Assembly (NCBI GenBank): GCA_041737355.1
Contig: JBGSRW010000006.1
Location: 83,734-147,733, forward strand
Origin: Patescibacteria group bacterium
GTDB taxonomy: Bacteria; Patescibacteriota; Patescibacteriia; XYB2-FULL-38-15
Direction of reading: 5' to 3'
Length of the DNA stretch: 64,000 bases
The notes below the pieces were generated by a model, which did no database searches, was not told where the DNA came from, and saw only the letters and a program-made list of their open reading frames with translations. Positions 17,336 to 53,364 of the stretch are shown here, in pieces; within the stretch, counting starts at the first letter, position 1, and every line of letters begins with the position of its first letter. A program made the position numbers and the translations under genes.

Positions 17336-17591
17336 AAATTTAAAATTATTTTCTAATACGCTCCGTGATTTCCGACCGCTCCTCCATAAAAAGAGTCGGA
17401 ACCAAAGACTGCTCGCCTTCGGCGGAAAATTAAAAAATCATTAACTTATCATAACATAATTTTATAAAAAGGCAAACCCCCAAGCCGGGGCTATTTTGAC
17501 TTAATCCTATATACATTATATATGCTTGACATTTTGGGCGGTTTTGCCAAGATAGAATATCTGGCCCGAATGGATTTGGGCGAGAAAAGGG

Positions 17592-17620
17592 GTCCCGCGG
17601 TATTGCGGGACGGAGGAGGA
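17592..17620 (+). promoter_or_regulatory. Perfect 7-bp hairpin (GTCCCGC-GGTATT-GCGGGAC) directly abutting the GGAGGAGGA ribosome-binding site of the islet gene
   Basis: The hairpin at 17592-17611 and SD at 17612-17620 sit 5 nt before the ATG at 17626; a possible translational control element. Confidence 0.35.
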
Positions 17621-17625
17621 TCAAA

Positions 17626-18303
17626 ATGGGAGACGGACAAACAAAGCCGCACCTTGTCGTGCCGGAACCGAAGAAATGGATGGCACGGGTCATGAAGCAG
17701 CTTTCCGGGGGCGAAGTAACGGGCGGATCCGTCATCGGAGTACGGGAAGCATCTTGCCTGAACGGCAGGCTCGCCTTCACTCTTCTCCGGCAGGGCGGCT
17801 CGTGCGTCGTTGTTTACGGCGACATGAGCGATCCGCTCGAGAGACTGACGAAGAGCGAACCTTTCCGCCAAGTCCTCGGCCTCCGGCTCGCGAACGGCCG
17901 GCCGCTCTACGTCGCCTGGCCGGATGATCCCAAGGACAACCGGCCCTGCGTCTTCTGGGGCAAAACCAAAGAAGGACCGCCCTGCGACGCCATTGACCAC
18001 GAGAGGCTCTCGGTGTGGGACAACGCGCTCCCGCTCTACCCCGGCTGGAGAGACGGCAAGGTTTGCATCTTCCGCGGTAGGGACTATGGCAAACCCTACG
18101 ATGATATCGTAGGCCCGATCTCCATCGTGGGTAACCGCGAACTCTACCGCGCCCGGCTCGGCAAGGAAATGCTTCTTGTCTGGAGCAAACAAGAAAGCGA
18201 GACCTACGAGCACGTTTCGCCGCCCGAGTTCGACGGCAAAGAAGTCACCGCCTGGGCGACAAGATCCGTCAGGTTCTACAAGCTGGCGATCAAGGTCGCC
18301 TAG
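17626..18303 (+). CDS. Hypothetical protein, GC-rich islet gene A
   Basis: 225 aa with the strong SD GGAGGAGGA. Codon third positions are strongly G/C-biased, unlike neighbours; no recognizable domain. The overlapping antisense ORF 17491..18405 is judged spurious. Confidence 0.6.
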   Translation: MGDGQTKPHLVVPEPKKWMARVMKQLSGGEVTGGSVIGVREASCLNGRLAFTLLRQGGSCVVVYGDMSDPLERLTKSEPFRQVLGLRLANGRPLYVAWPDDPKDNRPCVFWGKTKEGPPCDAIDHERLSVWDNALPLYPGWRDGKVCIFRGRDYGKPYDDIVGPISIVGNRELYRARLGKEMLLVWSKQESETYEHVSPPEFDGKEVTAWATRSVRFYKLAIKVA

Positions 18304-18313
18304 GAGACAAGCC

Positions 18314-18847
18314 ATGACGGACGAAAATGAGAAGATGGCTTGTCCGAACTGCGGCTCGGAAGACGTCAAATGCTTCCACCAGCCGAAAAACGGCTTCGTC
18401 ACCATCTGGGACGAGTACGTCTTGCTCTGCCCGAAGTGCCGTCACCACGAAACGCGGCAGGAGCAGGCCGGCTTTTTCTTCTTCCTGCTCTTCTGGTCCC
18501 GCGACACGGTCTGCCCTTTCTGCGGCAAACCGCCCGCGAAACATCAGAAGGGACGGCTTCTCACGGAGATGGCTTCCTTTCTCGATGAAACCGGGGACAA
18601 GGCGAAGGAACTCGATCCGGCCGCCGAGATCTGCCCGGAGTGCGGCAAGGGTGAAATCGTCTGCACTTATCTTGGCGAGAGCGGCACGCCGAGAAATTAC
18701 AACTACGTCTGGGAGCATACCTGCACCCGCTGCGGTTACAACCGCAACTTCACCGAATTCAGCGAGTGCGATGATCCCGATCACGCCGAATTCGTTGACC
18801 GGCACGGTCCCGGCAAAGACGGCGGCTGTCCCGGCCCGCACAAGTAG
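18314..18847 (+). CDS. Cys-rich multi-zinc-ribbon protein, GC-rich islet gene B
   Basis: ATG at 18314 with AGGAG 8 nt upstream, 11 nt after the gene A stop. 177 aa with CPNCGSE, CPKCRHHE, CPFCGK, CPECGKGE, CTRCGY motifs (five CxxC pairs). Confidence 0.6.
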   Translation: MTDENEKMACPNCGSEDVKCFHQPKNGFVTIWDEYVLLCPKCRHHETRQEQAGFFFFLLFWSRDTVCPFCGKPPAKHQKGRLLTEMASFLDETGDKAKELDPAAEICPECGKGEIVCTYLGESGTPRNYNYVWEHTCTRCGYNRNFTEFSECDDPDHAEFVDRHGPGKDGGCPGPHK

Positions 18848-27699: not shown

Positions 27700-28494
27700 T
27701 TATTTTCCTCCGTCTTCTTTGGCTAGCCTTTGCAATTTTCTAATGGCCCTCCCCGCAATTTCCTTCACGCCAGACGAACTGAGACCGTAAGCTTGCTTAA
27801 CGGCGCTTATCTCTGGCTGGCCGTAAAACAGACTCCGCAGAACATCTTGCTCTCGAGAAGAAAGCCGGCCGAGCAAGCGCTCAGCCAAATTGACTGTTTC
27901 CCTGCCTGAAAGTTGGGCTGAGGGATCCCACTCTCTTCCTTTTGCGGGAACAGCCGATTCGCTGATTTCCCCTCTTTTCTCTTCGCGCTTGACCGCCAAC
28001 CTCAGAGCTTCTCTCGTCGGAAAATCAAGAAAATCACGTAACCTGTCTTTCTTGATCTCCGTGATTTCTTCCAATTCTTTCTCTGTTGGCTCTCGGTCTT
28101 CTTTCGAGCGGAAAACATCTCTCGCGTGGCAAATTTCCCGATAAAGTCTCGCTGCTCCGGGTGGAACATTGAGCCTGTTTGCCCACGCTTCGAGAATTGC
28201 CAGAGACATTTCTTTCTTTATCCACCAAACGCTGTAGGTGCTGAACCTGGCTCCCCTTGTCCAGTCAAAACGCCTAATGGCTTTGAGTAAGCCGATTTGC
28301 CCCTCCTGAATCAGGTCTTTCACCGAAAGACCTTTACCAAAATACGGCCTAGCCCAAAAATTGACCAGCCCGAGATTGGCTTCGAATATAATCGCCTCAG
28401 CCGCTCTGTCTCCTACCCTGGCTTTCTGGAAAAGACTAACTTGATCCTTTCTGGAAAGCACCTTGCTTTTAAAGATCTTCTTTTCTTCCGCCAC
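27700..28494 (-). CDS. RNA polymerase sigma-70 family factor (compact)
   Basis: 264 aa. Region 2 is FSTYSVWWIKKEMSLAILE; the region 4 HTH is AYGLSSSGVKEIAGRAIRKLQ. Confidence 0.85.
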   Translation of the reverse strand: MAEEKKIFKSKVLSRKDQVSLFQKARVGDRAAEAIIFEANLGLVNFWARPYFGKGLSVKDLIQEGQIGLLKAIRRFDWTRGARFSTYSVWWIKKEMSLAILEAWANRLNVPPGAARLYREICHARDVFRSKEDREPTEKELEEITEIKKDRLRDFLDFPTREALRLAVKREEKRGEISESAVPAKGREWDPSAQLSGRETVNLAERLLGRLSSREQDVLRSLFYGQPEISAVKQAYGLSSSGVKEIAGRAIRKLQRLAKEDGGK

Positions 28495-28530: not shown

Positions 28531-29559
28531 TTACAACTCCCAGTTCGGATCAACCCTTAATTTTTGCCATGGGGTGAAATCTTTTTTTATCGCATGAAAA
28601 TATCCGGCCGCGGCTATCATCGCCGCGTTGTCGGTGCAATATTCAAACGGCGGAATGTTCCATCCCACCTCAGGCAATTCTTTTTTCATCACATCGACGA
28701 AGCATTCCCGCAATCTCTTGTTCGCGGATACCCCGCCGGCCAGCATCACGGTTTTTACTTTATATTTTTTGGCCGCCCGGAGAGTTTTCGCGATAAGTAC
28801 GTCAACAATCGCCTCCTGGATTTCATAGGCCATTGCCGGCCTGATTTTTTCTATTTTATATTTATTTTTTAAATCTCGGACGGCATAAAGCACGGCTGTC
28901 TTCAGCCCTGAAAAAGAAAAATCAAAATTTGGCGAATCAATCATCGGCCGCGGCAGTTTATCCATGGAGCATGAACTGCCAACCGAAAACCTCGCCGCCT
29001 CTGTTGCAATCGCCGGACCGCCCGGGTATCCCAATCCCAGAATCTTGGCCGCCTTGTCAAAGCATTCCCCGGCCGCGTCGTCGCGCGTCTCTCCGATTAT
29101 TTTATATTTTCCGTGGCCGCGCATCAAAATCAATGCCGTATGCCCTCCGCTCACCACAAGACAGAGAGCGGGAAATTCTATTTTTTCATCCGTAAGCCAA
29201 TTGGCGTAAATATGCGCCTCAATATGATTAATCCGCACCAACGGTTTTTTGGAGAGATAAGACAAAATCCTCGCCATTTCATTGCCGACCAAAAGCGAGG
29301 TTATAAGACCCGGGCCCGAGGCGATAGCAATGGCATCAATTTCCTTCCAGCTATCTTTTCCGACCGCCTCCTGAAACACCGGCAAAATCGCCTCAAGATG
29401 TTTCCGGGCTGCCACTTCGGGAACGACTCCGCCGTATTTGGCATGAATTTTTATTTGCGAGGAAACAATATTGCTTTTGATATTAAAACTCCGACCGTCG
29501 CCGATAACGACTGCCGCGCTTGTCTCGTCGCAAGATGTTTCGATGCCTAAAATTTTCAT
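28531..29559 (-). CDS. tsaD: tRNA N6-adenosine threonylcarbamoyltransferase TsaD
   Basis: 342 aa starting MKILGIETSCDETSAAVV; Kae1/Gcp family with metal-binding His/Tyr motifs. Confidence 0.9.
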   Translation of the reverse strand: MKILGIETSCDETSAAVVIGDGRSFNIKSNIVSSQIKIHAKYGGVVPEVAARKHLEAILPVFQEAVGKDSWKEIDAIAIASGPGLITSLLVGNEMARILSYLSKKPLVRINHIEAHIYANWLTDEKIEFPALCLVVSGGHTALILMRGHGKYKIIGETRDDAAGECFDKAAKILGLGYPGGPAIATEAARFSVGSSCSMDKLPRPMIDSPNFDFSFSGLKTAVLYAVRDLKNKYKIEKIRPAMAYEIQEAIVDVLIAKTLRAAKKYKVKTVMLAGGVSANKRLRECFVDVMKKELPEVGWNIPPFEYCTDNAAMIAAAGYFHAIKKDFTPWQKLRVDPNWEL

Positions 29560-29772
29560 AAATAAACTTCGTATCGTTAATCTAATATATCCTATCTTTG
29601 TTATCTTGACCTCGCACTTTCTTTTAAAGAAACTGTATTCTTATCTTACCATCATATCAAATTAAAAGACAAGAAAGTACGGGGTTGACAAAGAAAAGCT
29701 CTCGTGTTAAGCTCCAACGTTGCTACCATCCGGGTCTTTTGACCTCGGAGGGGAAGGCAAGGGAGGAACATA

Positions 29773-30234
29773 ATGGAAGGAACGAGCGGGAGCGGCCCGA
29801 AGCCGCAAAGAACCCGAGAAGATGTTATTCGTTCCCGTGGCGTAGCCATTCTGATGCAGATTGCCATGCCTGTGCTTCACGACCGGGGAAGCGACGACGA
29901 TCGTGGCCGGGCCACGAGATGCAAGCTCTTCGACGTCTACGCTGATCCCGAAGGCCGGATGGTCTTCGTTCTGGATATCGCCGACGACGACGAACGGGAT
30001 AGGATCATCGGCGGGGAACACCGACTTCATCTCTCGGCTCTCCAGATTCTCTTTTCCGTGTCGGTCCGTGACACTTTTCCGGTCGAAGAAAGGCAAAACG
30101 TTAACGTAATTGCCGGCATCCGCAATCCCGGCGACGGCTTGATCGTTTTCCCCCAGGAACTCGTCCCGGAGAGCGAGCTCGATCCGCTCGATCCGGAAGA
30201 CGAAGATGACGGGGAGGAAGACGGCGACGCGTAG
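29773..30234 (+). CDS. Hypothetical protein with an acidic C-terminal tail, GC-rich islet 2
   Basis: 153 aa with RBS GGGAGG and a candidate promoter TTGACA-17-TAAGCT at 29686. It is GC-rich unlike the flanks, and ends with EDEDDGEEDGDA. The antisense ORF 29707..30240 is judged spurious. Confidence 0.5.
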   Translation: MEGTSGSGPKPQRTREDVIRSRGVAILMQIAMPVLHDRGSDDDRGRATRCKLFDVYADPEGRMVFVLDIADDDERDRIIGGEHRLHLSALQILFSVSVRDTFPVEERQNVNVIAGIRNPGDGLIVFPQELVPESELDPLDPEDEDDGEEDGDA

Positions 30235-30243
30235 CAACAACGA

Positions 30244-30294
30244 CCCCTCGGTTTGCGCTTCACCACATGTGAACGCCGCGAACCGGGGTTTTTA
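30244..30294 (+). terminator. Candidate terminator: imperfect long hairpin plus U-run
   Basis: CCCCTCGGTTTGCG ... CGCGAACCGGGG followed by TTTTT. Confidence 0.4.
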
Positions 30295-30368
30295 TTATCA
30301 AGCGAGCAAGAGAAATGAAATAAGTTTCATTTCCGAGCGAGCGCGGATAACACGGAGTATTTTAAACC

Positions 30369-30397
30369 TTGACCAAATTTTAAATTAAGGATAAAAT
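30369..30397 (+). promoter_or_regulatory. Sigma-70-like promoter for tRNA-Glu
   Basis: TTGACC-17 nt-TAAAAT, about 20 nt upstream of the tRNA 5' end; preceded by a 9-bp perfect palindrome GAAATGAAA-taag-TTTCATTTC (30312-30337). Confidence 0.4.
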
Positions 30398-30418
30398 ATT
30401 TTCAAGCGACGTTTTTAT

Positions 30419-30494
30419 GGCCCTATCGTCTAGTCCGGTCTAGGACACCACGCTTTCAATGTGGTAACCCGGGTTCGAATCCCGGTGGGGCTAC
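30419..30494 (+). tRNA. tRNA-Glu (anticodon TTC), CCA encoded
   Basis: Aligns position-by-position with canonical bacterial tRNA-Glu: GGCCCTA TC GTCTAG ... ACCAC GCTTTCAAT GTGGT AAC CCGGGTTCGAATCCCGG TGGGGCT A CCA. Confidence 0.85.
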
Positions 30495-30557
30495 CAAAAT
30501 AGTGCATTACTTCTTTAAAAGAGATATAATAGAGTAATAACTTGTAATCTCTTAATA

Positions 30558-30986
30558 ATGTTCAACCTCTTCCCTGCTAAGAATCAAAAATCCGAAGAGG
30601 AAAATTTCTTTCCGGTTCAGGCTGGTCAGGAAGATAAAAGTTGGCTGTCCAAAGACTATGAGGGCCAGCTCTCCGTTGATGTTTACCATACAGAAAAAGA
30701 TATTGTCGTAAAATCAACCATCGCCGGCGTCAGGCCCGAGGACTTGAATATTGTCGTAAACAACGATCTCTTAACTATCCGCGGCAAACGCGAAGCCTCG
30801 CCGGATATCAACCCTTCGGATTACCTTTACCGCGAATGCTATTGGGGCGGTTTTTCGAGAACTATTGTTCTGCCTCAGGACGTAAAAGCCGACAAGATAA
30901 AAGCTATTTTAAAAAACGGCTTGCTGACGGTTATTCTACCCAAGGCGAGCTCCAACGCGGAGGTTAAAGTCAGGGAGGAATTTTAA
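30558..30986 (+). CDS. Hsp20/alpha-crystallin family small heat shock protein
   Basis: 142 aa with an alpha-crystallin domain (LSVDVYHTEKDIVVKSTIAGVRPEDLNIVVNNDLLTIRGKRE ... GLLTVILPK). Confidence 0.85.
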   Translation: MFNLFPAKNQKSEEENFFPVQAGQEDKSWLSKDYEGQLSVDVYHTEKDIVVKSTIAGVRPEDLNIVVNNDLLTIRGKREASPDINPSDYLYRECYWGGFSRTIVLPQDVKADKIKAILKNGLLTVILPKASSNAEVKVREEF

Positions 30987-33336: not shown

Positions 33337-33509
33337 CTAACAGGTTATCATATCATACGGGATAAATTTGTCAAGAGAACAAAAACCCCTTTTAAAATTT
33401 ACCGAATAGACACAAGACTAAGGGAACTCAAAAGTCTCTTTTTTTATCCTGATCTGTTTTGGTTAAAAATAAAACCCCGTACATTTTGGCACGAGGTTCT
33501 TCTCCACTT

Positions 33510-33929
33510 TTAAAGCAGAGAATCGAGACAACGCAGGTAAATCATCCTAATCTCCTGACGCGAGATAAGCTGGTTCGCGGTCATTCCCGGACCGATGGCG
33601 TGATACCAGCGCAATTCCAAATCACCGCATTTGAAATTGGGCCGTTTGATGGCGCACAATCCGTGGTGCAGGCCGGTCCCCACGCCGCAGGTGCATTTGC
33701 CCCAATGGTAAGGGCGCATTTCGAAAACGCCGTTCTCAAAGTCAATACCTCCGGTGACTCCGCTTTCTTCGTCGGGAATGCCCTTTCCGAGTTCGGCAAG
33801 AAGAAAAGCAATATCCTTAATAGTAGCGCTCGCGAACTCGCCAGCCTCGTCGCCAAATTCCCATTCGCCGTGGAAATTCCGGGCCATCTCGGTGGGCCAT
33901 TCGCTTGATCGGATGCCCCTGCCCTCCAT
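33510..33929 (-). CDS. Hypothetical Cys/His-containing protein, GC-rich islet 3 gene D
   Basis: 139 aa with RBS GGGAGG 7 nt before the ATG; contains HWGKCTCGVGTGLHHGLC; GC-rich. The antisense ORF 33459..33908 is judged spurious. Confidence 0.55.
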   Translation of the reverse strand: MEGRGIRSSEWPTEMARNFHGEWEFGDEAGEFASATIKDIAFLLAELGKGIPDEESGVTGGIDFENGVFEMRPYHWGKCTCGVGTGLHHGLCAIKRPNFKCGDLELRWYHAIGPGMTANQLISRQEIRMIYLRCLDSLL

Positions 33930-34063: not shown

Positions 34064-34690
34064 CTATCGCCGCGGCGCAACCGGGGGAACCCGGATACCG
34101 CGCCGGTCGCGCTGACTCAGGCCGCCGATCTCCTCGTCATCGGCCCGATTTCCTCCGCGCATCATCCATTCGAGGCCCCGCATGGCCATCACTTCTTCGA
34201 CCGAAACCTTCTTGTGCTCGGGACATCCACGTCTAGAGCAGACTTGGATCATCCCGGAAGAGCCGTCCCGGACGTAGAGCGACTTGATACCGACCATCTT
34301 GGCGTTGCAGGTACAGTACGCCACGGTCGGCAGACTTGCACCGCACCACGGACAGAAGAGATCGAGCACTTCACCTTCCCTGATCTCGGGCTCGGAGCGA
34401 ACCGTGCGGCCGCCCCAAGCGGCCGAAACGTGGAGAACGTGATCGCCATCCCGCAGCGCCTCGTTCATGTAACGCCAGCCGATCTTGATTGCCGGATGGC
34501 CGTCGATCTCGCGGACCGGATCGACTAGCCCAATCCCGCAGGCCGGCAAGGGGCAGGCGGCAATGATAATGTTGCCCTGCTGTCCCAAGCGCGCGCACTC
34601 CTTGCAGTGAAGGCCGTCCGGACGAAGTTCCAGAAGACCGCCATGCAAGACGCAAACCCTCGTCTCCTCCCTTTTTCCCTGCATTTCCAC
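34064..34690 (-). CDS. Cys-rich (multi-CxxC) protein, GC-rich islet 3 gene C
   Basis: 208 aa with the perfect SD AAGGAGGTG 5 nt before the ATG; motifs CKECARLG, CPLPACG, CPWCGAS, CTCNAKM, CSRRGCPEH; Arg-rich C-terminus. Confidence 0.6.
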   Translation of the reverse strand: MEMQGKREETRVCVLHGGLLELRPDGLHCKECARLGQQGNIIIAACPLPACGIGLVDPVREIDGHPAIKIGWRYMNEALRDGDHVLHVSAAWGGRTVRSEPEIREGEVLDLFCPWCGASLPTVAYCTCNAKMVGIKSLYVRDGSSGMIQVCSRRGCPEHKKVSVEEVMAMRGLEWMMRGGNRADDEEIGGLSQRDRRGIRVPPVAPRR

Positions 34691-37032: not shown

Positions 37033-37527
37033 CTACGCAGCGTCCTTGCGGACGGCAAGGATTCTCTCGGGCCGAGGGCCTAGGTCGACCCCAGAGAAAT
37101 CTGGCGGATCGATCCCGCCGCCGGTGAAATCATCACCGTTGAGGATCCGCTCGCCTTCGTGGTATGAGAGAAAAGGGAAGACGTGTCCGCCGTCAGGATC
37201 CGCCCAACGCGAGCCGATAACCACGATTTGGAACTCTCGCTGAAGTCCGGGATAGCGAGCACCAAGAGCTAGAAGATCTTCGATCTTGGCAGGTCGGAGG
37301 CCGTGGCGGTCAAGTTCGGCAATGACCTCACTAGCCGAACGGGGAGAGTACTTGGGGTCATCGGGAACGCGGGCAAGGAGGAGCTCACGCTCCACCTTGC
37401 CCTCACCCGTGATGGGGAAGCGGTCGGAGGAGACGCTGGGGAACACGTCATCGTAATTGCCAGCAGCGACCATCGCTTCGAACGTCTGGCCGTAGTCCAC
37501 CGTGACCTTGTAGGTCCTCTTCTTCAT
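37033..37527 (-). CDS. Hypothetical protein, GC-rich islet 4
   Basis: Trimmed to ATG at 37527 (MKKRTYKVTVDYGQTF...) with RBS GGGAAGG; 164 aa; GC-rich versus flanks; no recognizable domain. Confidence 0.5.
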   Translation of the reverse strand: MKKRTYKVTVDYGQTFEAMVAAGNYDDVFPSVSSDRFPITGEGKVERELLLARVPDDPKYSPRSASEVIAELDRHGLRPAKIEDLLALGARYPGLQREFQIVVIGSRWADPDGGHVFPFLSYHEGERILNGDDFTGGGIDPPDFSGVDLGPRPERILAVRKDAA

Positions 37528-37684
37528 CCTTCCCTTTCTAACCAAAGGTTTTCGATCGCTCGCCAATAGGCAGGACCATTCCTGGCCTTATTTTGAGGGT
37601 TATAAAACCGCCAAAATAAAGGCAGGAACGATAAATCAGCTTATCATGGCTTTAATATTTTGTCAAGATCTTATAACATCTTTA

Positions 37685-47590: not shown

Positions 47591-47619
47591 TTGACAATTA
47601 AAAATTTCCTTGGTAAACT
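47591..47619 (+). promoter_or_regulatory. Sigma-70-like promoter for the tRNA-Arg/tRNA-His operon
   Basis: TTGACA-17 nt-TAAACT, about 15 nt upstream of tRNA-Arg. Confidence 0.4.
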
Positions 47620-52605: not shown

Positions 52606-53364
52606 ATGAAGACAAAAATGACGTACCTGGCCATTTTTGCCGTGCTTTGCGGCTGCCGCAACGAATTCATTGACCTGACTCGGGAGGAATACGGGGTCGT
52701 TACCCAAATCATGATCCGTCCCGACTTCCCCGAGGGAGACGGCTCAATCGCCGTCCCCAAGGGGGACCAATCAAACACGGCGAATTACAAACTGAGGGCG
52801 TACGTCTACAACCACGACGGCATGCCCTTGTACCGGCCGATCGATTGGCGGGTTTCCGACCCGGCCCTGGTCGAACTCATGCCGGAAACCGACGACCCTC
52901 CGACCCACGAAGCCAGAGCCGCCATCCGGACTCTCCAAGACGTCTTCGACGCGGAAGGCGAAACCGAACCGGAAGCCACGATCACGGCCTGCGTCACGAA
53001 CGACTGCGAAGGATACGGCGGAGAAGTCGTCTGCGAACCGGAAATTTGCAGCGCGCCGATTACCGTGAAAGGCGTCGTGAATGCCGAAGGGGCTTGGGAA
53101 CTCTCGGGCGCGACTTTCCCCTTCACGGTGGCAATCTACACCAGCCAGACCGGACGGACGCTCGACGCAATCTCGAGCTATTACGAGCCGGAAATCCACG
53201 GCAACCAGATCAATTTCTCGGCTGGCAGCACAAGCTACGTCGGCCACTTCACCGACCGGACGCGCGTCACGGGCGAAGCGATTGTCTCCCCGAGCGGCGA
53301 CAATCTCGGAACCTGGACAGCGGTAAAGTGTCCGGACACCGGCTGCACCGGCGCCGGGCCATAG
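52606..53364 (+). CDS. Predicted lipoprotein, GC-rich
   Basis: 252 aa with the lipobox FAVLCGC at residues 12-18 and RBS GGAAGGGAGG; many Cys in the mature part (CVTNDCEGYGGEVVCEPEICS, CPDTGCTG). The overlapping ORFs 52771..53400(-) and 52845..53441(+) are judged spurious GC-driven frames. Confidence 0.55.
   Translation: MKTKMTYLAIFAVLCGCRNEFIDLTREEYGVVTQIMIRPDFPEGDGSIAVPKGDQSNTANYKLRAYVYNHDGMPLYRPIDWRVSDPALVELMPETDDPPTHEARAAIRTLQDVFDAEGETEPEATITACVTNDCEGYGGEVVCEPEICSAPITVKGVVNAEGAWELSGATFPFTVAIYTSQTGRTLDAISSYYEPEIHGNQINFSAGSTSYVGHFTDRTRVTGEAIVSPSGDNLGTWTAVKCPDTGCTGAGP

What the first reader, a model, noticed from the sequence alone, without database searches (positions are those of the whole stretch)
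29686..30295. GC-rich single-gene islet (acidic-tailed 153-aa protein) wedged between tsaD and tRNA-Glu
It has its own TTGACA-17-TAAGCT promoter, GGGAGG SD and hairpin terminator, with a composition clearly unlike tsaD or the tRNA region. It lies about 120 nt upstream of tRNA-Glu; tRNA genes are classical integration targets, though no integrase or direct repeats were found by eye. The protein ends in a poly-acidic tail (EDEDDGEEDGDA), which may mimic nucleic acid or act as a histone/DNA-binding-protein decoy.
Basis: partly seen in the sequence, partly recalled or inferred. Interest (0 to 1): 0.5.

Follow-up and report, generated by a model that had tools for sequence, protein, structure and literature searches.

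The report
Accessory KH-fold gene beside tRNA-Glu
This is a real, self-contained gene for a small, very acidic protein with an RNA-binding-type (KH) fold, sitting in a slot next to a tRNA gene that related Candidatus Falkowbacteria fill differently; it is a modest new protein family rather than a freshly inserted mobile element.

Summary
A 153-aa ORF (29773-30234, +) has a near-consensus promoter, a GGGAGG ribosome-binding site and a strong terminator. Its GC is 0.589 against a window mean of 0.471.

The "islet" reading is only partly right. There is no integrase and no repeat of the tRNA 3' end. Orthologues (54-63% identity) sit at the same tsaD-side position in sister Candidatus Falkowbacteria, so the insertion is not recent. 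However, the tsaD/tRNA-Glu interval is genuinely variable:
- empty in two species
- a distant paralogue ("gene2") in three
- both genes in another
- tRNA orientation flips between genomes

Every family member is GC-rich whatever the host GC. Codon choice adds to the amino-acid effect (GC3 0.66 against 0.544 expected, p≈0.001), and this excess is unexplained.

Most likely it is a strongly expressed accessory KhpA-like protein that binds RNA or a protein partner, with a tail that autoinhibits or recruits. Function is inferred, not shown.

The parts
28531..29559 (-). tsaD, divergently transcribed; left boundary of the variable slot
   Evidence: 342-aa ORF. The orthologue carries PF00814 TsaD. 75-82% identical to TsaD of Candidatus Falkowbacteria MAGs.
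29685..29713 (+). Promoter: -35 TTGACA (29685-29690), 17-nt spacer, extended -10 TGtTAAGCT (29705-29713)
   Evidence: Sequence read; pattern match. The -35 and TGnTAAGCT / TGnTATAAT are conserved in L001, L008, L009, L010 and L014.
29721..29772 (+). 5' UTR of about 52 nt (start inferred). Conserved 5' GUUGCUNCC, an inner hairpin, and SD GGGAGG at 29761-29766
   Evidence: Alignment and alifold; single folds. The 5' motif pairs either with GGRAGGCAA, leaving the SD free (window, L008, L012), or with the SD itself (L001, L010, L009). Covariation is weak and the role is not established.
29773..30234 (+). CDS, 153 aa. N-terminal helix plus type II KH core (residues 15-117, nt 29815-30123). Conserved PQELVPESELDP motif and disordered acidic tail (residues 127-153, nt 30151-30231, net charge -14)
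30244..30293 (+). Intrinsic terminator: long GC-rich hairpin plus TTTTT
   Evidence: -26.2 kcal/mol, z -5.3. Conserved with compensatory changes in L001, L008, L009, L010, L012 and L097.
30297..30357 (+). Conserved ~60-nt element of unknown role: ATCAAGCGAGC, a variable hairpin, then CGAGCGAGCGCGGATAACACGG
   Evidence: Also present after the gene1 homologue in L097/L098 (45% protein identity, unrelated context). A shorter form is in L010 and it is absent in L012. Single copy in the window. No Rfam match.
30369..30397 (+). Promoter of tRNA-Glu (TTGACC, 17 nt, TAAAAT)
   Evidence: The same promoter precedes tRNA-Glu in L010, L012 and L019.
30419..30496 (+). tRNA-Glu(UUC); right boundary of the slot. 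Inverted relative to the empty-site genomes and L001
   Evidence: ARAGORN and Rfam. Orientation comparison.

Best explanation
The feature is an accessory gene restricted to one lineage of Candidatus Falkowbacteria (Patescibacteria/CPR).

**What it encodes (shown or modelled)**
- A small, very acidic protein whose folded part is a type II KH domain (alpha-beta-beta-alpha-alpha-beta).
- It is distantly related to KhpA/KhpB-type KH proteins and to a second local family, 'gene2'.

**Where it sits (shown)**
- It occupies a variable slot between tsaD and tRNA-Glu.
- Different species hold nothing, gene1, gene2 or both in that slot.
- Local rearrangement also flips the tRNA.

**History (inferred)**
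- The gene was probably gained once in the ancestor of a subclade and then inherited vertically, evolving faster than its neighbours.

**Expression (inferred from signals)**
- It is a monocistronic unit with a near-consensus extended -10 promoter, a structured 5' UTR, a strong SD and a strong terminator.

**Function (inferred, not shown)**
- The most conserved stretch is alpha1, the loop and alpha2: ERGRLIG-x-K-R-LHLSALQILF. Five arginines are invariant. I take this surface to be the working site.
- It would bind single-stranded RNA or dimerise with a KH partner such as gene2, as KhpA does with KhpB.
- The conserved PQxLVPESELEP motif and the disordered acidic tail would either fold back to compete with nucleic acid (autoinhibition, as in Hfq) or recruit a basic partner.

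**Composition**
- The persistent GC-richness comes partly from amino-acid content (many D, E, R, G, P; R:K = 15:2) and partly from C-ending codons.
- It belongs to the gene family in every host, not to a recent transfer.
For: **Gene reality and strand**
-.

**Fold**
- AF2 model with pLDDT 81.1 and pTM 0.71; elements H15-31, E50-57, E63-69, H72-79, H85-99, E112-117.
- Foldseek returns the same set, with Era at E 5e-3.

**Sequence link to KH**
- One family member hits PF13083 at E 0.005.
- Six of nine gene2 proteins hit PF13083, best E 7e-4.
- gene1 against gene2 profiles: hhalign E 1.1e-4 and probability 56% over the KH core. BLASTP gives E 0.006, and the HMMs cross-hit.
- The gene2 model has the same topology.

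**Slot variability and synteny**
-.
- Flank-protein tree; flank identities.

**Signals**
- Promoter, UTR and terminator are conserved.

**Composition**
-.

**Tail and charge**
-.

**Literature**
- GXXG is needed for KhpA RNA binding. KH domains dimerise through alpha1/alpha3. KhpB proteins with degenerate motifs showed no RNA binding alone (PMC13015501).
- KH type II definition (PMC11261784).
- The acidic C-terminal domain autoregulates Hfq (PMC5606850).
Against: - The canonical GXXG loop is not intact. The window protein has DRIIG-GEHR; the family has GRLIG-x-K-[R/C].
- The KH core of the window protein is itself acidic (net -4, pI 5.3). Across the family the core ranges from -4 to +6. Classical RNA binding is therefore uncertain.
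- No Pfam or NCBIfam hit reaches threshold.
- The structure rests on a 9-sequence alignment.
- Foldseek E-values are all above 1e-3.
- Some type II KH-like folds, such as DciA and DnaA domain I, bind proteins rather than RNA.
- gene1 and gene2 each occur alone at this locus, so an obligate heterodimer is unlikely.
- The GC3 excess has no demonstrated cause.
Confidence: 0.55

Rival explanations
1. Protein-binding KH-like adaptor or decoy. The degenerate KH domain no longer binds RNA. Instead it docks on a protein, and the acidic tail mimics nucleic acid to occupy or inhibit a basic nucleic-acid-binding partner. The reader's 'mimic' idea is a version of this.
For: - Net charge is about -18, and the tail is -14 and disordered.
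- The second Gly of the GXXG loop is lost.
- KhpB proteins with degenerate GXXG showed no RNA binding alone (PMC13015501).
Against: - Five invariant arginines and the strongest conservation lie exactly in the alpha1-loop-alpha2 region, where KH domains bind RNA.
- Several family members have basic cores, pI 9-10.
- No partner can be named.
- The acidic residues form a floppy tail rather than the rigid charge array of known DNA mimics.
Confidence: 0.25
2. Self-contained mobile cassette. Promoter, CDS, terminator and the ~60-nt downstream element would move together between genomic contexts, often landing beside tRNA-Glu, by an unknown recombination route. The GC-richness would then reflect a separate evolutionary life.
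For: - The same unit appears in unrelated contexts: next to a SAM riboswitch and tRNA-Glu(CUC) in L014, next to Lon in L097, and in L009.
- The downstream element is conserved between the window and L097 although the proteins are only 45% identical.
- Members are always 0.10-0.17 GC above the host locus where the fetched locus is long enough to judge.
- gene1 or gene2 occupies the same slot upstream of an identical tRNA promoter.
Against: - There are no terminal repeats and no recombinase.
- The element is single-copy in 64 kb.
- No relatives exist in viral contigs and there are no PHROG or PADLOC hits.
- Distribution within the Falkowbacteria subclade fits vertical descent.
- tRNA linkage is absent in L097 and L096.
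Confidence: 0.12
3. Recent horizontally acquired islet integrated at tRNA-Glu.
For: - Atypical GC.
- Adjacency to a tRNA.
- The site is empty in L018 and L020, with the tRNA 3' end about 35-40 nt (L018) to about 115 nt (L020) from the tsaD start.
Against: - No integrase and no att repeat.
- The gene is on the tRNA's 5' side here.
- Orthologues of 54-63% identity sit at the same locus in sister lineages, with saturated synonymous sites.
- The promoter-bearing intergenic region is shared with those lineages.
Confidence: 0.06
4. Not a protein gene. The GC-rich patch would be a structured RNA, or the 177-aa antisense ORF would be the real gene.
For: - GC-rich patches in AT-richer genomes can be RNA genes.
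- The antisense frame is open in the window and in L001.
Against: - Third-codon-position substitutions dominate in the + frame in all pairs.
- The antisense frame carries stop codons in L008, L009, L010 and L012.
- There is no Rfam hit.
- The fold prediction is confident.
Confidence: 0.02

Closest known systems
KhpA / KhpB (EloR, Jag) KH-domain RNA-binding proteins (Pfam PF13083 KH_KhpA-B)
   Same: - The upstream half of the extended motif (GxxIG) and the hydrophobic alpha2 pattern are retained.
- Small size, like KhpA.
- In some genomes it occurs next to a second KH paralogue, recalling the KhpA/KhpB pair.
   Different: - No Pfam hit at threshold.
- The last Gly of GXXG is replaced by R or C, and the window protein also has an extra residue there.
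- It has an extra N-terminal segment, a conserved PQxLVPESELEP motif and an acidic tail.
- It lacks Jag_N and R3H domains.
- It is accessory and restricted to a few Falkowbacteria-like lineages. Only 4 clusters at 50% identity were found among 1.84 billion representatives, and none in GTDB species representatives.
KH domains of ribosome-assembly factors (Era C-terminal domain, RbfA, uS3)
   Different: There is no GTPase domain and no sequence similarity. Presence or absence among close species argues against a core ribosome-assembly role.
DciA (DUF721) and the HP1451 KH-like protein-binding domains
   Different: No sequence relationship was detected. There is no link to dnaB or to a secretion ATPase beyond housekeeping synteny.
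Hfq with an acidic C-terminal tip
   Same: A nucleic-acid-binding core followed by a disordered acidic tail. In Hfq that tail competes with RNA for the basic surface (PMC5606850). This is the analogy behind the proposed role of the tail.
   Different: Unrelated fold (Sm against KH). The core here is not uniformly basic.
tRNA-linked genomic islets or flexible hypervariable regions
   Same: Variable gene content at a tRNA-flanked intergenic site, with atypical composition.
   Different: No integrase and no att repeats. The content is one or two tiny paralogous genes. The composition is GC-richer than the host, whereas islands are usually AT-richer.

Membership tests
Type II KH domain (KhpA/KhpB-like, PF13083) | alpha-beta-beta-alpha-alpha-beta topology | tested here: met
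   AF2 model elements H15-31, E50-57, E63-69, H72-79, H85-99, E112-117; pLDDT 81.
Type II KH domain (KhpA/KhpB-like, PF13083) | Structural similarity to solved type II KH domains | tested here: met
   [not shown]
Type II KH domain (KhpA/KhpB-like, PF13083) | GXXG loop between alpha1 and alpha2 (extended GXXIGXXG in KhpA) | tested here: not met
   The window protein has D76-R-I-I-G80-G-E-H-R84. The family consensus is G-R-L-I-G-x-K-[R/C]. The first half is kept in most members and the last Gly is lost in all.
Type II KH domain (KhpA/KhpB-like, PF13083) | Sequence match to the Pfam model at gathering score | tested here: not met
   No hit for the window protein at E ≤ 10. One family member reaches E 0.005. 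The paralogous gene2 family scores 17-20 bits against a 32.1 cutoff.
Type II KH domain (KhpA/KhpB-like, PF13083) | Binds single-stranded RNA or DNA | not testable with these tools
   Needs EMSA, RIP-seq or a three-hybrid assay.
Integrase-mediated tRNA-linked genomic island | Integrase or recombinase gene at the island edge | tested here: not met
   The neighbours are FtsH, T2SSE, TsaE, a sigma-70 factor, TsaD, HSP20, DUF3006, VanW and H+-PPase.
Integrase-mediated tRNA-linked genomic island | Direct repeat of the tRNA 3' end (attL/attR) flanking the insert | tested here: not met
   The 25-nt 3' end has a single match in the window at ≤ 3 mismatches. No relevant repeat lies in 29400-30700.
Integrase-mediated tRNA-linked genomic island | Presence/absence polymorphism among related genomes | tested here: met
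   Empty in L018 and L020; gene2 only in L016, L017 and L019; gene1 in the window, L008 and L010; both in L001, L003 and L004.
Integrase-mediated tRNA-linked genomic island | Insert abuts the 3' end of the tRNA | tested here: inconclusive
   True for the L001 arrangement and consistent with the empty sites. In the window, L010 and L019 the tRNA is inverted, so the gene lies on its 5' side.
DNA/RNA-mimic acidic proteins | Rigid surface array of carboxylates imitating a nucleic-acid backbone | tested here: inconclusive
   The protein is very acidic (about -18). However, 14 of the negative charges sit in a low-confidence, disordered tail (block pLDDT 54-67) and not on the folded body.
Known cis-regulatory RNA in the 5' UTR (e.g. 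ROSE-type thermometer) | Match to an Rfam covariance model | tested here: not met
   Nothing relevant appears at E ≤ 1 in 29560-30560. The anti-SD-like GUUGCUCC pairing is only a prediction.

The most novel reading that the evidence does not exclude
gene1 and gene2 are interchangeable cassettes of a private, GC-rich KH-protein family that Falkowbacteria swap in and out of a tRNA-Glu-linked slot. Each cassette would carry its own promoter, terminator and, in some cases, a conserved ~60-nt downstream element that could serve as a recombination or RNA signal. Selection would hold the GC-rich composition against host mutational bias. The proteins would act as acidic RNA-mimicking or RNA-sequestering factors in a conflict or symbiosis setting, not as housekeeping KhpA-like regulators.
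Probability: 0.12. Interest if true: 0.6.

Novelty: new variant of a known kind. Interest (0 to 1): 0.35.

Why it matters
Patescibacteria (CPR) have tiny genomes full of unannotated small genes. This finding assigns a fold, and a plausible class of function, to two 'hypothetical' families that databases list without any domain. It also identifies a small hypervariable slot beside tRNA-Glu in Candidatus Falkowbacteria.

The persistent GC-richness of these accessory genes is the reverse of the usual pattern, in which accessory genes are AT-richer than the core. It also survives saturating synonymous divergence. That makes it a small, testable puzzle about selection on gene composition. None of this changes a major concept, so the value is incremental.

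Tried and rejected
- **att repeats and integrase.** None found (neighbour annotation).
- **RNA gene or antisense ORF.** Rejected by codon-position substitution patterns and antisense stop codons, and by Rfam.
- **Phage origin.** No relatives of gene1 or gene2 in IMG/VR, no PHROG hit and no meaningful BFVD structural match. The single viral hit to the 18-mer of the downstream element was a chance match inside GC-rich coding DNA.
- **Defence system.** No PADLOC hit. My recollection that the 331-aa L015 neighbour looked SIR2-like was not supported by Pfam.
- **Other paralogues in the window.** None found with HMMs of either family. The other GC-rich ORFs are unrelated, some being Cys-rich.
- **Translational selection as the cause of high GC3.** Unlikely. 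The most conserved neighbours (H+-PPase 98.6% and T2SSE 94% identical to L001) have GC3 of only about 0.55.
- **Obligatory link to tRNA-Glu.** Rejected, because L097 and L096 have none nearby.
- **Link to the adjacent sigma factor.** L008 has gene1 without it.
- **PDB sequence search.** It returned only a low-complexity acidic match to sigma-70.
- **GTDB representative genomes.** They hold no gene1 relative.
- **afdb50 fold library.** Unavailable.

Full report

Yes. The window holds a 153-aa ORF at 29773-30234 on the + strand, ending ...PEDEDDGEEDGDA. Its signals are as follows.
- The -35 TTGACA is at 29685-29690, followed by a 17-nt spacer and TAAGCT at 29708-29713.
- TAAGCT is preceded by TG at 29705-29706, which makes it an extended -10 promoter.
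- TAAGCT matches only 3 of 6 positions of TATAAT, so the generic scan missed it. The -35, the TG and the -10 are nevertheless conserved in orthologous loci.
- GGGAGG lies 6 nt before the ATG.
- Downstream, a long hairpin (30244-30288) plus a T-run folds at -26.2 kcal/mol, z = -5.3. It is conserved with compensatory changes in seven loci.
- tRNA-Glu(UUC) follows at 30419-30496, with its own promoter at 30369-30397.

The composition is also as described.
- ORF GC is 0.589 against a window mean of 0.471 (z = 2.3, top 2.9% of same-size windows).
- Amino-acid content (21 D, 15 R, 14 E, 14 G, only 2 K) accounts for a rise to about 0.542.
- Codon choice adds the rest. GC3 is 0.66 against 0.544 ± 0.038 expected (z = 3.1, p ≈ 0.0014), and 42% of codons end in C.
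- The patch is not unique. About five other ORFs in the window are as GC-rich.

The + strand is the coding strand. In all orthologue pairs third-position changes dominate (for example 35/21/69). The 177-aa antisense ORF carries stop codons in four of the five orthologues.

**2. Organism and family**

TsaD is 69-82% identical to that of Candidatus Falkowbacteria / Patescibacteria MAGs.

The protein family is tiny.
- Five relatives were found among 5.8 billion clustered proteins.
- Four clusters at 50% identity were found among 1.84 billion representatives with a profile search.
- None were found in 185,579 GTDB species representatives or in viral contigs.
- There is no Pfam or NCBIfam assignment. 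Where sources give a name, it is only 'hypothetical protein'.

**3. The locus in relatives**

In L001 (a 336-kb JGI contig) the orthologue is 60% identical. It sits in the same place: FtsH, T2SSE, TsaE, sigma and TsaD on one side, HSP20, DUF3006, VanW and H+-PPase on the other. Flanking proteins are 71-99% identical, apart from the sigma factor at 31%. L008 has the gene next to tsaD too.

The interval itself is variable. Orientations below are given in the window's frame.

| Locus | Arrangement |
|---|---|
| L018, L020 | Empty. tsaD(-), tRNA-Glu(-) with its 3' end about 35 nt (L018) or about 115 nt (L020) from the tsaD start, then HSP20(+) |
| L016, L017, L019 | A different GC-rich gene, 'gene2' |
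| L001, L003, L004 | gene1, gene2, tRNA(-) |
| Window, L010 | gene1, tRNA(+) |
| L015 | gene2, gene1, three AT-rich genes, tRNA(-) |

A neighbour-joining tree of TsaD, TsaE and T2SSE gives (L020 empty, (((window, L001), L008), (L018 empty, (L016, L017)))). So gene1 is confined to one subclade, which fits a single old gain followed by vertical descent.

Outside this synteny gene1 occurs in three other contexts:
- next to a SAM riboswitch and tRNA-Glu(CUC) in L014
- next to Lon in L097, with no tRNA nearby
- in L009 and L096

There is no integrase, and no repeat of the tRNA 3' end.

All gene1 and gene2 copies are GC-rich (0.52-0.63, GC3 0.60-0.81) in host loci of 0.41-0.51 GC. Synonymous sites between orthologues are near saturation, so simple failure to ameliorate does not explain this. 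The most conserved neighbours have GC3 of about 0.55, so expression-linked codon bias does not explain it either. The cause is open.

**4. What the protein is**

An AlphaFold2 model built from nine family sequences is confident over the body (mean pLDDT 81, pTM 0.71). Its order of elements is H15-31, E50-57, E63-69, H72-79, H85-99, a short H104-109, then E112-117. That is the alpha-beta-beta-alpha-alpha-beta order of a type II KH domain. Residues from about 135 onward are disordered.

The structure searches agree.
- Foldseek returns the same proteins, though with weak E-values (best 5e-3).

Sequence evidence points the same way.
- One family member hits PF13083 KH_KhpA-B at E 0.005.
- Six of nine gene2 proteins hit PF13083, best E 7e-4.
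- The gene1 and gene2 profiles align over the KH core at E 1.1e-4, probability 56%. BLASTP and HMM cross-hits support this.
- The lower-confidence gene2 model has the same topology.

The diagnostic GXXG loop is degenerate.
- KhpA has GxxIGxxG.
- The gene1 family has G-R-L-I-G-x-K-[R/C], and the window protein has D-R-I-I-G-G-E-H-R.
- Some gene2 proteins keep GILIGHRG.
- According to PMC13015501, GXXG is required for KhpA RNA binding, KH domains dimerise through alpha1/alpha3, and KhpB proteins with degenerate motifs did not bind RNA alone. PMC11261784 notes that RbfA also has a modified motif.

Conservation and charge give mixed signals.
- Conservation is highest in alpha1-loop-alpha2 (ERGRLIG..LHLSALQILF).
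- Five arginines are invariant: R13, R22, R46, R75 and R107.
- The core charge ranges from -4 (window) to +6 across the family.
- The tail is always acidic (-5 to -42) and is preceded by a conserved PQxLVPESELEP motif.

**5. Most likely mechanism**

Shown or modelled:
- It is a real, constrained, monocistronic gene.
- It has a KH type II fold with a disordered acidic tail.
- It is accessory and sits in a variable slot.

Inferred:
- It is strongly expressed, judging from the near-consensus promoter, the SD and the terminator.
- It uses the conserved KH cleft to bind single-stranded RNA or a KH partner such as gene2.
- The tail either competes with nucleic acid for the binding surface, as in Hfq (PMC5606850), or recruits a basic partner.

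The main rival is a purely protein-binding decoy or adaptor, given the degenerate loop and the acidic core. I put about 0.55 on the overall picture and roughly even odds on RNA binding specifically.

The 5' UTR has a conserved GUUGCUCC. It can pair either just upstream of the SD or with the SD itself. This hints at translational control, but the covariation is too thin to claim it.

**6. Comparison and novelty**

The protein works like, and is distantly related to, KhpA/KhpB-type KH proteins. It fails two membership criteria, namely an intact GXXG loop and the Pfam threshold. It also adds features those proteins lack: an N-terminal segment, the PQxLVPESELEP motif and the acidic tail. I therefore file it as a new variant of a known kind.

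The 'islet' label is half right. The slot is flexible, but the gene is an old resident of its subclade and shows none of the hallmarks of integrase-mediated insertion.

**7. Verdict**

This is a sound observation with a partly correct interpretation. The interest is modest (0.35): a fold assignment for two CPR orphan families, a small tRNA-linked variable slot, and an unexplained, persistent GC excess.

Noticed in passing
window 30297-30357: A ~60-nt element lies right after the gene1 terminator: ATCAAGCGAGC, a variable hairpin, then CGAGCGAGCGCGGATAACACGG. It recurs after the 45%-identical homologue in L097/L098, where the flanks are conserved and the hairpin arms differ but stay complementary. 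L010 has a shorter form and L012 lacks it. It is single-copy in the window, has no Rfam match, and its role is unknown.
   Followed up: partly
window 27700-28494 (-): A sigma-70-family gene lies between tsaD and tsaE. It is only 31% identical to the gene at the same position in L001. No such gene lies between tsaD and tsaE in L008, L016, L017 or L018, so this is a second variable insertion in the same neighbourhood.
   Followed up: partly
window 17491-18847, 33510-33929, 34064-34690, 37033-37566, 52606-53364: Several other ORFs of GC 0.58-0.63 sit in a 0.47-GC genome; those scanned (17491-18405, 34064-34690, 37033-37566, 52606-53364, plus the + strand ORF 33459-33908 overlapping 33510-33929) gave no Pfam hit. 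Some have CxxC zinc-ribbon-like motifs. One (34064-34690) is syntenic with L001 but only 52% identical. The GC-rich genes seem to be the fast-evolving, lineage-specific ones, which is the reverse of the usual AT-rich accessory pattern.
   Followed up: partly
window 37638-37666 (-): The GC-rich ORF 37033-37566 has a promoter of the same style as gene1: TTGACAAA, spacer, TGaTAAGCT. Six TTGACA-plus-extended -10 promoters occur in the window, one of them in front of tRNA-Arg/His at 47591.
   Followed up: no
L018 4884-4998; L020 4801-4997; L001 9426-9503; window 30419-30496: tRNA-Glu(UUC) orientation differs between close relatives. In the empty-site genomes it is co-oriented with tsaD and directly upstream of it, so it is probably co-transcribed. 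In the window, L010 and L019 it is inverted and has its own promoter.
   Followed up: partly
window 29596-29623 and 29671-29698: A 28-nt imperfect inverted repeat (71% complementary) lies in the tsaD/gene1 divergent promoter region. Its right arm overlaps the gene1 -35 element. The left arm is conserved in L001 and L010. It may be an operator or a duplicated promoter.
   Followed up: no
L014 1003-1149 (-): A SAM riboswitch (Rfam 54.9 bits) diverges from the gene1 homologue. That homologue is followed by tRNA-Glu(CUC) in an otherwise unrelated context.
   Followed up: no
L096 490-1035 (P0009): One family member has a 64-residue tail of net charge -42, rich in E, D and Y (EEYEEYEEYDEYEEEEE...). 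This shows that tail length is free to vary while the acidity is kept.
   Followed up: no
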